Below, piece by piece: positions 48,137 through 51,100 of a stretch of 64,000 bases of DNA. Source of the stretch: Escherichia coli (GTDB lineage Bacteria > Pseudomonadota > Gammaproteobacteria > Enterobacterales > Enterobacteriaceae); the NCBI RefSeq assembly GCF_048403405.1, contig NZ_CP183129.1, one strand, 5' to 3'. Each line of letters starts with the position of its first letter. Within the stretch, counting starts at the first letter, position 1. The position numbers were made by a program.

Positions 48137-51100
48137 TTAATTCGTAAAACGTGCTACCGATCACATTAAGAAATCAGCGCTTATTTTTTCGCTCCCGGGC
48201 ATTACGCAATGAGCAGCGAACTCAGGCATACATCAAGAATAGAGAGGGATTGCAGTTTGCAGCAATCCCTCTTTGCAGACCTTTAATCCGTTGACTATAG
48301 GCGCTAACATAGCGCCTCATTTTTTTGCGGGTGATGATATGCGTGTGTTACTGGCACCGATGGAGGGAGTGCTTGACTCTCTGGTGCGTGAATTGCTGAC
48401 CGAAGTTAACGACTACGATCTGTGCATCACCGAGTTTGTCCGCGTGGTGGATCAACTGCTGCCAATAAAAGTCTTTCATCGCATTTGCCCTGAGCTACAA
48501 AATGCCAGCCGGACACCTTCCGGTACGCTGGTGCGCGTGCAGTTGTTAGGTCAGTTCCCACAATGGCTGGCAGAGAACGCCGCCCGTGCGGTGGAGTTAG
48601 GTTCCTGGGGCGTGGATCTCAATTGCGGCTGCCCGTCGAAAACGGTTAACGGTAGCGGCGGTGGGGCGACGTTACTCAAAGATCCTGAACTCATCTACCA
48701 GGGGGCAAAAGCGATGCGTGAAGCTGTACCAGCGCATTTGCCCGTCAGCGTAAAAGTGCGTCTGGGCTGGGACAGCGGTGAGAAGAAATTTGAAATCGCC
48801 GACGCGGTGCAACAGGCTGGCGCTACGGAGCTGGTGGTGCATGGGCGGACGAAAGAGCAGGGTTACCGCGCGGAGCATATTGACTGGCAGGCGATTGGCG
48901 ATATTCGCCAGCGGCTGAATATTCCGGTGATTGCCAACGGTGAAATCTGGGACTGGCAGAGCGCGCAACAATGCATGGCGATCAGCGGCTGCGACGCAGT
49001 GATGATTGGTCGCGGGGCGCTCAATATTCCCAACCTGAGCCGTGTGGTAAAATATAACGAACCGCGAATGCCGTGGCCGGAGGTGGTTGCTTTGCTGCAA
49101 AAATATACCCGTCTGGAAAAGCAGGGCGATACCGGGTTATATCACGTAGCGCGGATTAAACAGTGGTTGAGTTATTTGCGTAAAGAATACGATGAAGCAA
49201 CGGAATTATTTCAGCATGTTCGGGTGTTGAATAATTCCCATGATATTGCAAGGGCTATTCAGGCAATTGATATCGAGAAACTCTAAGAAACCATAGTGAT
49301 GTTTTTTGACAATGTGTTAGCTCTTTATCAATAGGCCGCACGGTTGTTTGGTGGCGTCAAAATCGCCGAGGCGTTCCCTGAAGGCCGGGGCAGCCCACAT
49401 GGATGTGGGCTGAGGGCGCGTTTTACAGGGATGTTACCTCGCGCCCGACCCGGTAGCCGTAAGGGATAAGCCGAGGGCACCGCGCAGCGGCGATTTTGTT
49501 CGCCAGAGCCCGGGGGTGCAGGGGGCGGCGGCGATTGGTCGCCCCCTGCGCGCTCCTTGCGCCAGTGATTATATGAAGCAATGCACATGACAGGAGCGCA
49601 ACAGGATGAGAGACTGAAATATTCTCGTTATTTTCGGATCTGATGACATTAATTAATTTTAAAATATCATCTTAAATACGCCAGTCACCACCAGTAGCCC
49701 AATCAGGAAAATAATCAATACAGCCCAGAGTATAATTTTCATTGGCGTTCCTTTATTTGTGAGTGCTGAATAAGTATAGGAAAAAACGAAGCCCTTTGCC
49801 GCTATCCATAAACGATTAAGATAAATCGGAAGATATCATTCACTTAGTGTATATTTTTCTGGATATGTCGTTTTATTGCCACTGATGTATTGCCACGCGA
49901 AACTAAAAAATATATCGCAACACACGGTAATCTCCGCGCACCTTTTCTTACCTGATTATTCCCCCATGAATCGTGATTTTTTTTATCCAGCCATCGCCTG
50001 TTTTCCGCTGTTACTGATGCTGACCGGGTGTGCGCCTATGCATGAAACCCGCCAGGCGTTAAGCCAGCAAACGCCCGCTGCACAAGTTGACACCGCATTA
50101 CCCACGGCGCTGAAAAATGGTTGGCCAGACAGCCAATGGTGGCTGGAGTATCACGATAATCAACTCACTTCCTTAATTAATAACGCACTACAGAGCGCAC
50201 CGGATATGCAGGTGGCTGAACAGCGCATTCAGCTGGCTGAAGCCCAGGCGAAGGCAATTGCCACTCAGGATGGTCCGCAGATCGACTTTTCTGCGGATAT
50301 GGAGCGGCAAAAAATGTCTGCAGAAGGGTTAATGGGGCCGTTTGCTCTGAACGATCCTGCCGCAGGTACGACCGGTCCGTGGTACACCAACGGTACTTTT
50401 GGCTTAACGGCGGGCTGGCATCTCGATATCTGGGGAAAGAATCGGGCGGAGGTTACTGCTCGCCTGGGTACGGTTAAAGCACGGGCGGCGGAACGCGAGC
50501 AAACCCGCCAATTGCTGGCTGGCAGCGTAGCCCGTCTGTACTGGGAGTGGCAAACCCAGGCGGCGTTAAACACTGTCTTACAGCAAATCGAAAAAGAGCA
50601 GAACACCATTATCGCCACCGATCGCCAGCTATATCAGAACGGGATTACTTCTTCAGTTGAAGGTGTGGAAACCGATATTAATGCCAGCAAAACCCGGCAG
50701 CAGCTCAACGATGTCGCGGGGAAAATGAAAATTATTGAGGCACGGTTAAGCGCACTTACAAATCACCAGACAAAGGCATTGAAGCTTAATCCGGTCGCGT
50801 TGCCGAAAGTGGCAAGCCAGCTTCCTGATGAACTGGGGTACTCCTTACTGGCCCGGCGGGCAGATTTGCAGGCGGCGCACTGGTACGTTGAGTCATCGTT
50901 AAGCACTATTGATGCGGCAAAAGCGGCATTTTATCCTGACATCAACCTGATGGCCTTCCTGCAACAGGATGCGTTGCACTTAAGCGATCTGTTCCGTCAT
51001 TCCGCGCAGCAAATGGGCGTTACGGCAGGCCTGACGCTACCCATTTTCGATAGTGGTCGTCTTAACGCCAACCTCGATATCGCAAAAGCCGAAAGCAACT

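What the first reader, a model, noticed from the sequence alone, without database searches (positions are those of the whole stretch)
49335..49600. GC-rich, hairpin-dense non-coding element downstream of dusC
The roughly 270 nt between dusC and yohP is conspicuously more GC-rich than the flanking sequence and packed with perfect inverted repeats: cagcccacat-gg-atgtgggctg (10-bp stem), gcagggggcg-N12-cgccccctgc (10-bp stem) and gggcgcg-N19-cgcgccc. A long-range imperfect inverted repeat (ggcgtcaaaatcgccgaggcg at 49352-49372 against cgcagcggcgattttgttcgcc at 49484-49505) encloses the first hairpins. It lacks the GCCGGATGCG / GCCTGATGCG cores of canonical REP elements seen elsewhere in the window, and the only ORF through it (86 aa, minus strand, Pro/Gly/Arg-rich) looks like a GC-composition artefact. 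It could be a different extragenic repeat class (boxC-like), a structured sRNA, or a remnant of acquired DNA.
Basis: seen in the sequence. Interest (0 to 1): 0.45.

Follow-up and report, generated by a model that had tools for sequence, protein, structure and literature searches.

The report
TRIP1c: known structured extragenic repeat
The GC-rich hairpin cluster after dusC is TRIP1c, a catalogued E. coli intergenic repeat of unknown function; comparison with Klebsiella relatives shows a conserved folded strand with two hairpin loops that match the binding motif of the regulator CsrA.

Summary

The element is not new. It is TRIP1c, one of the TRIP1 repeats described by Rudd (1999) and surveyed by Li et al. 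(2024, PMC10888264). TRIP1 is low-copy, occupies five fixed loci, occurs in both orientations, and has no known function.

What I add:
- Homologues at about 85% identity exist in Klebsiella (13-14 per K. pneumoniae chromosome), at different loci and always beside REP-like repeats.
- Across 20 Escherichia and Klebsiella copies a "double-Y" fold is kept: 98.4% of cells paired, 16 pairs with compensatory changes, against 38-46% in slid controls.
- Orthologous copies are 92.5-99.6% identical between Escherichia lineages, while third codon positions of neighbouring genes are 68-91% identical.
- Two hairpins display A-N-GGA-Y hexaloops, the CsrA/Rsm recognition motif. Rfam's TwoAYGGAY model (Csr-Rsm binding clan) matches at 30 bits, below its threshold of 43.

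Best reading: a REP-associated extragenic repeat that folds as RNA and probably binds CsrA. That last step is unproven. I found no CLIP-seq peak, no promoter and no expression evidence.

The parts
49310..49640 (+). Whole TRIP1c unit: strongly conserved core 49335-49602, plus weakly conserved extensions of about 25 nt on the left and about 35 nt on the right
   Evidence: Alignments of copies from five E. coli loci, other Escherichia species and Klebsiella (A3, A6, A7). The unit found inverted in other strains covers the core plus these extensions. The position 43-44 bp after yohI/dusC matches the published description of TRIP1c.
49346..49365 (+). P1 closing stem, 5' arm. It pairs with 49491-49509.
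   Evidence: 16 pairs, 99.1% of cells paired, 3 pairs with compensatory changes (UA/CG, GC/CG, AU/CG).
49491..49509 (+). P1 closing stem, 3' arm
   Evidence: It lies within a 29-nt stretch that is invariant in all nine E. coli copies of alignment A3.
49366..49372 (+). P1b, 5' arm (CCGAGGC). It pairs with 49470-49476 (GCCGAGG) around a tandem G-A.
   Evidence: 5 pairs, 100% paired, 3 of them covary (44/154 UA:11 CG:8; 47/151 GC:15 AU:5; 48/150 AU:9 GC:9).
49383..49389 (+). P3 stem, 5' arm (GGCCGGG). It pairs with 49449-49458 and closes the three-way junction that carries hairpins 1 and 2. UCCC 49375-49378 pairs with GGGA 49463-49466 just outside it.
   Evidence: Helices 3-5: 97.5-100% paired, mostly invariant.
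49392..49411 (+). Hairpin 1: stem AGCCCAC/GUGGGCU presenting the loop AUGGAU (49399-49404)
   Evidence: The loop is invariant in all 20 copies, while 3 stem pairs covary (AU/GC, CG/GC, GC/AU). ACATGGATGT is one of only 3 ACANGGAYGT sites in the 64-kb window.
49414..49446 (+). Hairpin 2: basal stem GGGCGCG/CGCGCCC, an internal loop, and a short apical stem presenting the hexaloop AGGGAU (49427-49432)
   Evidence: The loop is A-N-GGA-Y, with N = G, A, U or C among copies and A and GGA invariant. The apical pair covaries (AU:11 / GC:9).
49480..49490 (+). Small hairpin P5 (CCGC-GCA-GCGG) at the P1 junction
   Evidence: 4 pairs, 100% paired, one covarying pair (GC:16 AU:4).
49518..49549 (+). Hairpin 3: 12-bp G+C-rich stem. 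No U-run follows on either strand.
   Evidence: 12 pairs, 4 with compensatory changes. No terminator-like site was found.
49550..49600 (+). 3' domain with two mutually exclusive pairings. Pairing (a): GCGCUCCU 49550-49557 with AGGAGCGC 49592-49599. Pairing (b): GGGGG 49512-49516 with CUCCU 49553-49557, plus UGCGC 49558-49562 with GCGCA 49596-49600.
   Evidence: Both are about 97-99% paired. Pairing (a) covaries at 238/273 (CG:9 UA:8); pairing (b) covaries at 242/278 in one copy.
48339..49286 (+). dusC, the upstream gene. The element is on its sense strand with no terminator between them.
49659..49742 (-). yohP, the convergent downstream gene. In about 39% of E. coli genomes the element is flipped so that it is sense to yohP instead.
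49328..49588 (-). 86-aa open frame: a composition artefact, not a gene
   Evidence: No Pfam match. The strand and frame of the longest open frame differ between copies, and indels break it.

Best explanation
The element is TRIP1c, one copy of the TRIP1 family of about 270-330-nt, G+C-rich extragenic repeats. Identity is near certain.

The family is shared by Escherichia and Klebsiella. In Klebsiella it is one module of REP-associated mosaic repeats that sit downstream of genes.

Its conserved property is the fold of one strand, a "double-Y". A long closing stem leads to a three-way junction carrying two hairpins, followed by a 12-bp GC hairpin and a 3' helix. That this fold is under selection is shown here.

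I infer that it acts as RNA. In this window it would be transcribed by read-through from dusC as part of that gene's 3' untranslated region.

The two junction hairpins present A-N-GGA-Y hexaloops 28 nt apart. This is the recognition motif of the CsrA/Rsm proteins, and one CsrA dimer could bridge the pair. The element would then be a portable CsrA-binding module that titrates CsrA or changes the fate of the host transcript. It is the enterobacterial, G+C-rich counterpart of the TwoAYGGAY RNA motif.

The steps from "acts as RNA" onward are inferred, not shown. My estimates: fold under selection about 0.85; acts as RNA about 0.6; binds CsrA about 0.35-0.4.
For: Identity:
- The location, length, GC content, roughly 94% identity to the aqpZ-lysO copy, and the three K-12 copies all match the published TRIP1 description.

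Fold:
- Across 20 copies from Escherichia and Klebsiella, 98.4% of cells are paired.
- 16 pairs have changes on both sides; 0 of 500 shuffles reach this; slid controls give 38-46% paired.

Constraint:
- Orthologous copies are 92.5-99.6% identical between Escherichia lineages.
- Third codon positions of dusC, mdtQ, lysO, aqpZ and alx are 68-91% identical over the same comparisons, and the yohP-mdtQ spacer is 93-95.5%.

Strand:
- G-U cells number 32 against 8 A-C cells.

CsrA motif:
- Hairpin 1's loop AUGGAU is invariant.
- Hairpin 2's loop is A-N-GGA-Y with all four bases seen at N, while the stems beneath covary.
- From my own knowledge, this matches the A(N)GGA core and the SELEX consensus RUACARGGAUGU.
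- Rfam's TwoAYGGAY model aligns end to end at 30.2, 30.6 and 29.9 bits in three diverged copies (E = 0.024 in the 1.4-kb search).
- TwoAYGGAY belongs to Rfam's "Csr-Rsm protein binding clan" and was proposed to bind CsrA (PMC4333381).
- Gammaproteobacterial TwoAYGGAY copies are likewise multi-copy, with loops ACAUGGAUGU and ACAGGGACGU and a long P1 stem.

Transcription context:
- There is no terminator between dusC and the element.
Against: - No CsrA CLIP-seq peak in E. coli K-12 contains TRIP1 sequence or is assigned to dusC, yohP, aqpZ, ybjE or putP. dusC and ybjE expression was unchanged in that study's csrA comparison. Low expression, or discarded multi-mapping reads, could explain the missing peak.
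- No promoter-like site lies upstream of the element and no terminator lies after it.
- No Hfq RIL-seq entry exists for these intergenic regions, and dusC is weakly expressed.
- Orientation relative to neighbouring genes is not fixed. The K-12 aqpZ-lysO copy is antisense to both neighbours.
- The TwoAYGGAY score is below Rfam's gathering threshold (30 against 43 bits), and Klebsiella copies give no hit at E <= 1.
- Two sites are few compared with CsrB.
- Folded single-stranded DNA would satisfy the covariation almost equally well.
Confidence: 0.4

Rival explanations
1. A selfish, REP-associated mosaic repeat. The conserved hairpins would be recognition structures, as folded single-stranded DNA, for the machinery that copies or moves the element, for example a REP-associated tyrosine transposase acting on the linked REP. 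On this reading there is no RNA or host function.
For: - None of the 7 Klebsiella loci is shared with the 5 Escherichia loci, so the element has moved.
- Copy number differs widely: about 3 in E. coli against 13-14 in K. pneumoniae.
- All 9 Klebsiella copies are preceded by a REP-like palindrome and a conserved linker, and one locus holds a tandem duplication of the mosaic.
- Copies sit mostly between convergent genes.
- Both orientations occur at the same locus at three loci.
- No promoter or transcript evidence was found.
Against: - In E. coli the element sits at five fixed loci across thousands of genomes, and the dusC-yohP site showed no empty allele among the sampled rows of the 5,426-genome search.
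- Orthologous copies are far more conserved than synonymous sites between Escherichia lineages. An inactive selfish relic would not be.
- The loop pattern (invariant A and GGA, free N) is exactly the CsrA core.
- The E. coli copies carry no REP next to them.
Confidence: 0.3
2. A generic 3'-end RNA structure, working like REP/BIME elements. The stable G+C-rich hairpins would protect upstream mRNAs (dusC in one allele, yohP in the other) from 3' exonucleases, or act as a barrier between convergent transcripts. No specific protein partner would be needed.
For: - The position is 44-150 nt after stop codons, mostly between convergent genes.
- The fold is very stable on both strands (z = -4.6 and -4.0).
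- Neither dusC nor yohP has a recognisable intrinsic terminator.
- Either orientation places a stable structure after both genes.
Against: - A simple stabiliser does not need 16 covarying pairs in a defined multi-helix architecture, invariant hexaloop sequences, or conservation above that of a promoter-containing spacer.
- REPs achieve this function with 35-40 nt.
- dusC mRNA stability was not flagged in the csrA study, and there is no direct half-life data for an element deletion.
Confidence: 0.2
3. An independent small-RNA gene with its own promoter and terminator.
For: - A conserved fold with covariation.
- Weak sequence conservation extends about 25 nt upstream of the core.
Against: - No sigma-70-like promoter lies upstream and no intrinsic terminator lies downstream on either strand.
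- RefSeq annotates nothing at this position.
- The element is absent from RIL-seq RNA lists.
Confidence: 0.05
4. A remnant of acquired coding DNA (the 86-aa Pro/Gly/Arg-rich ORF) or of a phage or plasmid insertion.
For: - High GC relative to the flanks.
- An open frame of 86 aa.
Against: - No Pfam match.
- The open frame changes strand and frame between copies.
- Substitutions are compensatory for base pairing.
- There is no match in phage records, and the "plasmid" matches are chromosomal fragments.
Confidence: 0.02

Closest known systems
TRIP1 repeats of E. coli (TRIP1a/b/c: Rudd 1999, Res Microbiol 150:653; TRIP1d/e: Li et al. 2024, Genes 15:236, PMC10888264)
   Same: It is this element. 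The position is 43-44 bp after yohI/dusC, about 273 bp, 62-65% GC, about 94% identical to the aqpZ-ybjE copy, found in either orientation, with a predicted "double-Y" RNA fold.
   Different: Nothing differs in the element itself. The published work gives no function, no covariation analysis, no relatives outside E. coli and no link to CsrA or TwoAYGGAY. It reports at most 5 copies per genome, whereas some complete genomes here show 7-10 places.
[quoted passage not shown] 2010)
   Same: A long closing P1 stem, a three-way junction, and two adjacent hairpins capped by A-Y/N-GGA-Y loops, the second hairpin having an internal loop. It is multi-copy in a gammaproteobacterial genome. The model aligns over its full length.
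   Different: The score is 30 bits against a gathering threshold of 43, and Klebsiella copies do not hit at all. Hairpin 2's loop is AGGGAU in this copy, so it is not AYGGAY. The element is 65% GC against an A+U-rich consensus. It also carries a second, 3' domain (hairpin 3 plus the 3' helix) that is absent from the model.
CsrB/CsrC/RsmX-Z sponge RNAs
   Same: GGA motifs displayed in hairpin hexaloops of the A(N)GGA type, spaced so that a CsrA dimer could bridge two sites.
   Different: There are only two strong sites against 9-22 in the sponge RNAs. No BarA/UvrY-type promoter, no terminator, no evidence of abundance and no CLIP-seq signal were found. The element is a dispersed repeat, not a single gene.
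REP/BIME extragenic palindromes
   Same: Extragenic, G+C-rich and hairpin-forming. Located after stop codons and between convergent genes, found in both orientations, and a substrate for chromosomal rearrangement. Physically linked to REPs in Klebsiella.
   Different: No REP core is present. The unit is about 8 times longer, with a multi-helix fold. Copy number is low (1-5, rarely up to 10, against hundreds).

Membership tests
TRIP1 repeat family (Rudd 1999; Li et al. 2024) | TRIP1c lies about 43-44 bp downstream of the yohI (dusC) stop codon, upstream of yohG (mdtQ) | tested here: met
   The dusC stop is at 49286 and the conserved core starts at about 49330-49335. yohP and mdtQ follow.
TRIP1 repeat family (Rudd 1999; Li et al. 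2024) | About 264-273 bp and 62-65% G+C | tested here: met
   The core is 49335-49602 (268 nt), with GC 0.63-0.72 in 100-nt windows.
TRIP1 repeat family (Rudd 1999; Li et al. 2024) | About 94% identity to TRIP1a (aqpZ-ybjE/lysO spacer). Further copies at putP-efeU (with an internal deletion), alx-sstT and ybaP-copA. | tested here: met
   Identity is 93.8-94.1% to the lysO-aqpZ copies. Copies were found at alx-sstT and ybaP-copA, and the deleted copy was found after putP in K-12.
TwoAYGGAY RNA (Rfam RF01731) | Covariance-model score at or above the gathering threshold (43 bits) | tested here: not met
   30.2 bits in the window, and 30.6 and 29.9 bits in two other E. coli copies. Klebsiella copies give no hit at E <= 1.
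TwoAYGGAY RNA (Rfam RF01731) | Two terminal loops with the sequence AYGGAY | tested here: inconclusive
   Hairpin 1 is AUGGAU in all copies. Hairpin 2 is AGGGAU here (G, not Y). It is AUGGAC or ACGGAC in some Klebsiella copies and AAGGAC in others.
TwoAYGGAY RNA (Rfam RF01731) | The two hairpins sit side by side in a junction closed by an often very long P1 stem | tested here: met
   P1 plus P1b plus P3 enclose hairpins 1 and 2 and are supported by covariation. See also the description in the Weinberg 2010 supplement.
Csr/Rsm-binding RNAs (CsrB, CsrC, Rsm sponge RNAs) | Several A(N)GGA motifs exposed in hairpin loops | tested here: met
   Two hexaloops, AUGGAU and A-N-GGA-Y, with invariant A and GGA and a free N. 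Further invariant GGA triplets at 49464-49466 and 49593-49595 are base-paired in the model.
Csr/Rsm-binding RNAs (CsrB, CsrC, Rsm sponge RNAs) | Physical binding by CsrA in vivo or in vitro | tested here: inconclusive
   The published E. coli CLIP-seq peak list holds no TRIP1 sequence. Low expression of dusC and the repeat nature of the element could hide a signal. Binding itself cannot be tested with these tools.
Csr/Rsm-binding RNAs (CsrB, CsrC, Rsm sponge RNAs) | An own promoter and an intrinsic terminator giving an abundant small RNA | tested here: not met
   No promoter-like site lies upstream and there is no terminator-like site in 49150-49800. The element is absent from RIL-seq RNA lists.
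REP/BIME | REP core GCCGGATGCG or GCCTGATGCG in a 35-40-nt palindromic unit | tested here: not met
   There are 7 cores elsewhere in the window and none in 49287-49658.
boxC repeat | Match to the 56-bp boxC consensus, with about 30 copies per K-12 genome | not tested
   No boxC consensus was available to me. The copy number (3 in K-12) does not fit a family of about 30 copies.
Intrinsic (Rho-independent) terminator | A G+C-rich stem followed by a U-run | tested here: not met
   0 sites were found on either strand. Hairpin 3 is followed by GCGCUCC on the + strand and ACCCCCGG on the - strand.

The most novel reading that the evidence does not exclude
TRIP1 and its Klebsiella relatives are a genus-spanning class of structured RNA under purifying selection: a REP-linked, dispersed CsrA-binding module. 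It would be the enterobacterial form of the orphan TwoAYGGAY motif. It would couple the fate of whichever transcript reads through it to the Csr system, possibly through a switch between the two alternative 3' helices.
Probability: 0.3. Interest if true: 0.6.

Novelty: already known. Interest (0 to 1): 0.3.

Why it matters
The element has been catalogued since 1999, but its function is still open. The only recent study (2024) treats it as a recombination substrate.

If the fold, the conservation above synonymous sites and the two CsrA-type hexaloops reflect real CsrA binding, three things follow:
- TRIP1 would give the orphan TwoAYGGAY motif an experimentally tractable representative in E. coli K-12.
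- It would add chromosomally dispersed CsrA-binding modules to the Csr network.
- It would show that a REP-world repeat can carry a specific RNA-protein function.

If CsrA does not bind, TRIP1 remains an unusually well conserved extragenic repeat. Its conservation and its trans-species orientation dimorphism would still need an explanation.

Tried and rejected
1. Small ORF driven by the AAGGAG-N8-ATG at the element's 3' end. The ATG and the peptide are not conserved between loci and are absent in Klebsiella, so I dropped it.
2. The 86-aa minus-strand ORF. It has no Pfam hit, and frame and strand are not conserved.
3. REP/BIME membership. No REP core is present.
4. Phage or plasmid origin. There is no phage match, and the "plasmid" matches are chromosomal segments or mislabelled chromosomes.
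5. An own promoter or terminator. None was found.
6. My first consensus structure, from Escherichia copies only, paired 49366-49374 with 49484-49490. Klebsiella copies break that pairing. They support instead P1b (49366-49372 with 49470-49476) plus a small hairpin at 49480-49490.
7. RNAalifold's version of hairpin 2 on the mixed alignment put GGA inside a stem without covariation. I replaced it with the basal-plus-apical stem model.
8. Simple inversion flanked by inverted repeats, as the source of the two orientation alleles. The spacers outside the flipped unit are too diverged to align and no flanking inverted repeat was seen. This is unresolved.
9. The genome-wide scan used the 18-mer GCGGCGATTTTGTTCGCC. 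It found only Escherichia plus about 80 chance hits, and missed Klebsiella because of 3 substitutions in that word. The pattern was too specific.
10. Literature searches for a transcript or a CsrA or Hfq signal at these loci found nothing.
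Full report
**1. The observation**

The window region is E. coli cdd-yohK-yohJ-dusC-[element]-yohP-mdtQ-yohF. Between the dusC stop (49286) and the yohP stop (49659), GC rises to 0.63-0.72 in 100-nt windows, against 0.33-0.45 on either side. There is also an unlisted 8-nt perfect pair at 49550-49557/49592-49599. The + strand folds at -143.1 kcal/mol (z = -4.6 against dinucleotide shuffles) and the - strand at z = -4.0. 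REP cores occur seven times elsewhere in the window but not here.

**2. What it is**

Megablast against 5,426 complete E. coli genomes finds the 321-nt query in 5,425 of them, at a median of 3 and up to 8 places per genome; the more sensitive blastn search with a 276-nt query finds up to 10. Other copies lie in three spacers:
- lysO-aqpZ
- alx-sstT
- ybaP-copA

A fourth copy, carrying an internal deletion, lies after putP.

A literature search identified the family. These are the TRIP1 repeats of Rudd (1999), re-surveyed in 6,725 genomes by Li et al. (2024; PMC10888264). The copy 43-44 bp after yohI (dusC) is TRIP1c. That paper already reports the five loci, 62-65% GC, both orientations at TRIP1a and TRIP1c, a predicted "double-Y" RNA fold, and chromosomal inversions between copies. 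It states that the function is unknown. The finding is therefore a catalogued, low-copy extragenic repeat.

**3. Orientation alleles**

At the dusC-yohP locus, 3,315 genomes carry the window's orientation. The rows sampled from the remaining ~2,100 genomes all carry the element flipped, in a spacer of nearly the same length (799 against 781 nt). I saw no empty site among them.

Both orientations also occur at lysO-aqpZ. Across species they occur at alx-sstT as well. Both TRIP1c alleles are found in other Escherichia lineages: E. whittamii, Escherichia sp. E1V33, Escherichia sp. MOD1-EC7003, and the divergent E. coli strains E69 and SCPM-O-B-8794.

The flipped unit is the core plus about 25 nt on the left and about 35 nt on the right. 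The spacers beyond are too diverged to reveal a mechanism.

**4. Relatives outside Escherichia**

An exact 18-mer scan of 100,044 species genomes found true copies only in Escherichia. BLAST against the plasmid collection, which contains mislabelled chromosomes, found homologues at about 84-86% identity in K. pneumoniae (13-14 places in one chromosome), K. aerogenes and K. variicola, plus one Citrobacter record.

The seven Klebsiella loci I examined differ from the five Escherichia loci, and at least six of the seven lie between convergent genes. All nine Klebsiella copies are preceded by a REP-like palindrome and a conserved linker. Four share a further right-hand extension of about 75 nt, and one locus carries a 437-bp tandem duplication.

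The element is therefore a module of REP-associated mosaics that has moved since the two genera split. There is no match in phage records.

**5. The fold is conserved**

I built an alignment of 11 Escherichia and 9 Klebsiella copies (A7). On it, a curated structure of 70 pairs is 98.4% paired. Sixteen pairs show changes on both sides. No shuffle out of 500 reaches the observed values, and structures slid by 1-3 columns give 38-46% paired.

The architecture, in order:
- A long closing stem: P1 at 49346-49365/49491-49509, then P1b with a tandem G-A at 49366-49372/49470-49476.
- A small hairpin at 49480-49490.
- A stem (P3) closing a three-way junction.
- Hairpin 1 at 49392-49411.
- Hairpin 2 at 49414-49446.
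- A 12-bp GC hairpin at 49518-49549.
- A 3' region with two mutually exclusive pairings, each about 97-99% paired and each with some covariation.

G-U cells outnumber A-C cells 32 to 8, which mildly favours the + strand. No reading frame is conserved, and the 86-aa ORF has no Pfam match.

**6. The element is constrained**

Between E. coli and other Escherichia lineages, orthologous TRIP1 copies are 92.5-99.6% identical. Over the same comparisons, third codon positions of dusC, mdtQ, lysO, aqpZ and alx are 68-91% identical, and the neighbouring yohP-mdtQ spacer is 93-95.5%. This indicates either purifying selection or homogenisation by recombination. A decaying relic would not look like this.

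**7. The loops**

Hairpin 1 presents AUGGAU, invariant in all 20 copies, while three pairs of its stem covary. Hairpin 2 presents A-N-GGA-Y, closed by a C-G pair. The A and GGA are invariant, and N is G, A, U or C in different copies.

From established knowledge (my own recollection, not tested here), A(N)GGA in a hairpin hexaloop is the recognition element of CsrA/RsmE. The SELEX consensus is RUACARGGAUGU, and UUACAGGGAUGU in this window matches 11 of its 12 positions.

Rfam support:
- The only Rfam model with any signal is TwoAYGGAY (RF01731). It aligns end to end at 30.2 bits (E = 0.024 in a 1.4-kb search), and at 30.6 and 29.9 bits in two diverged copies. All are below the gathering score of 43. 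Klebsiella copies give no hit.
- TwoAYGGAY belongs to Rfam's Csr-Rsm protein binding clan.
- It was proposed to bind CsrA (PMC4333381).
- In Psychromonas ingrahamii it is a multi-copy element with loops ACAUGGAUGU/ACAGGGACGU and a long P1.

The resemblance in architecture is real. Membership is not established.

**8. Evidence against a working CsrA partner**

- The CsrA CLIP-seq peak list for E. coli K-12 contains no TRIP1 sequence and no peak assigned to the neighbouring genes.
- dusC and ybjE were not affected in that study's csrA comparison.
- No promoter-like or terminator-like site flanks the element.
- Two RIL-seq supplements list no RNA from these spacers, and dusC is weakly expressed.
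- The K-12 aqpZ-lysO copy is antisense to both neighbours.

**9. Verdict**

Identity as TRIP1c is essentially certain, so the feature is already known.

The best-supported account is a REP-world extragenic repeat whose folded strand is under selection, and which most likely acts as RNA read through from the upstream gene. The specific proposal, that its two hexaloop hairpins bind a CsrA dimer, fits the sequence pattern closely but lacks any direct evidence. I put it at about 0.35-0.4.

The main rivals are:
- a selfish single-stranded-DNA structure of REP-associated mosaics (about 0.3);
- a generic 3'-end RNA barrier or stabiliser (about 0.2).

Noticed in passing
window 49876-51402 (mdtQ) and the whole 49080-49860 stretch: The window is not K-12. 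It is 100% identical to E. coli strain 7/2, and mdtQ is an intact ORF here, whereas it is a frameshifted pseudogene in K-12 AG100.
   Followed up: partly
E. coli genomes NZ_CP051733.1 (7 places) and NZ_CP134663.1 (9-10 places): Some complete E. coli genomes hold 7-10 TRIP1 places, more than the published maximum of five. The extra loci could mark recent movement or duplication.
   Followed up: no
L113 19460-20420; L114 5890-6260; L115-L119 (about 90 nt upstream of each copy): Every Klebsiella copy is preceded by a REP-like palindrome (GCCGGGTGGCGGC...CTTACCCGGCCTAC) and a conserved linker. Four share a right extension of about 75 nt. L113 carries a 437-bp tandem duplication of the whole mosaic.
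   Followed up: partly
window 49550-49600 with 49512-49516: Two mutually exclusive, equally well conserved pairings exist at the 3' end. One buries the AGGAGCGC segment and the other leaves its GGA free. This could be a conformational switch.
   Followed up: partly
L016 3396-3534 (K-12 putP-efeU), L003 3972-4165, L009 2997-3128, L104 159-438: TRIP1b and two plasmid-borne copies are deletion derivatives. The K-12 junction joins ...GAAGGCCGGG directly to hairpin 3, so I infer the deletion arose between the direct repeats GGCCGGGG and GCCCGGGGG and removed both CsrA-type hairpins. A full-length copy at the putP site exists in L104.
   Followed up: partly
L014 7380-8175 against L010 1872-2301; L013 8058-8457 against L005 2424-3040: K-12 carries ybaQ (HigA-like) plus a BIME where strain R32_14_1F carries TRIP1e. 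It carries CCCTCTCCC...GGGAGAGGG-type repeats where other strains carry TRIP1d. These spacers are cassette-like hot spots.
   Followed up: partly
L002 about 2780-2836 against L007 2450-2500: The K-12/Nissle allele of the aqpZ-lysO spacer keeps an aqpZ intrinsic terminator (GGCCTGGCGCAATGTCAGGCC plus a T-run) next to the element's right end. The O157 allele, with the element in sense orientation, lacks it.
   Followed up: no
L023 1-700: A metagenome-assembled contig joins a dusC fragment, a TRIP1 copy and copA, and holds a second partial inverted copy about 270 nt away. This looks like a TRIP1c/TRIP1e recombination product.
   Followed up: no
window 49576-49636, minus strand: A weak AgvB-like Rfam match (22.9 bits against a gathering score of 56, E = 0.12) overlaps the element's right edge. 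I judge it to be chance.
   Followed up: no
L010 996-1079: An sroB small RNA (82 bits) lies in the ybaK-ybaP spacer of strain R32_14_1F. It is an expected known gene, unrelated to TRIP1.
   Followed up: no
window 42170-42214: A cluster of three REP cores in alternating orientation (a BIME). Further single REP cores lie at 11276, 30069, 45979 and 52283.
   Followed up: no
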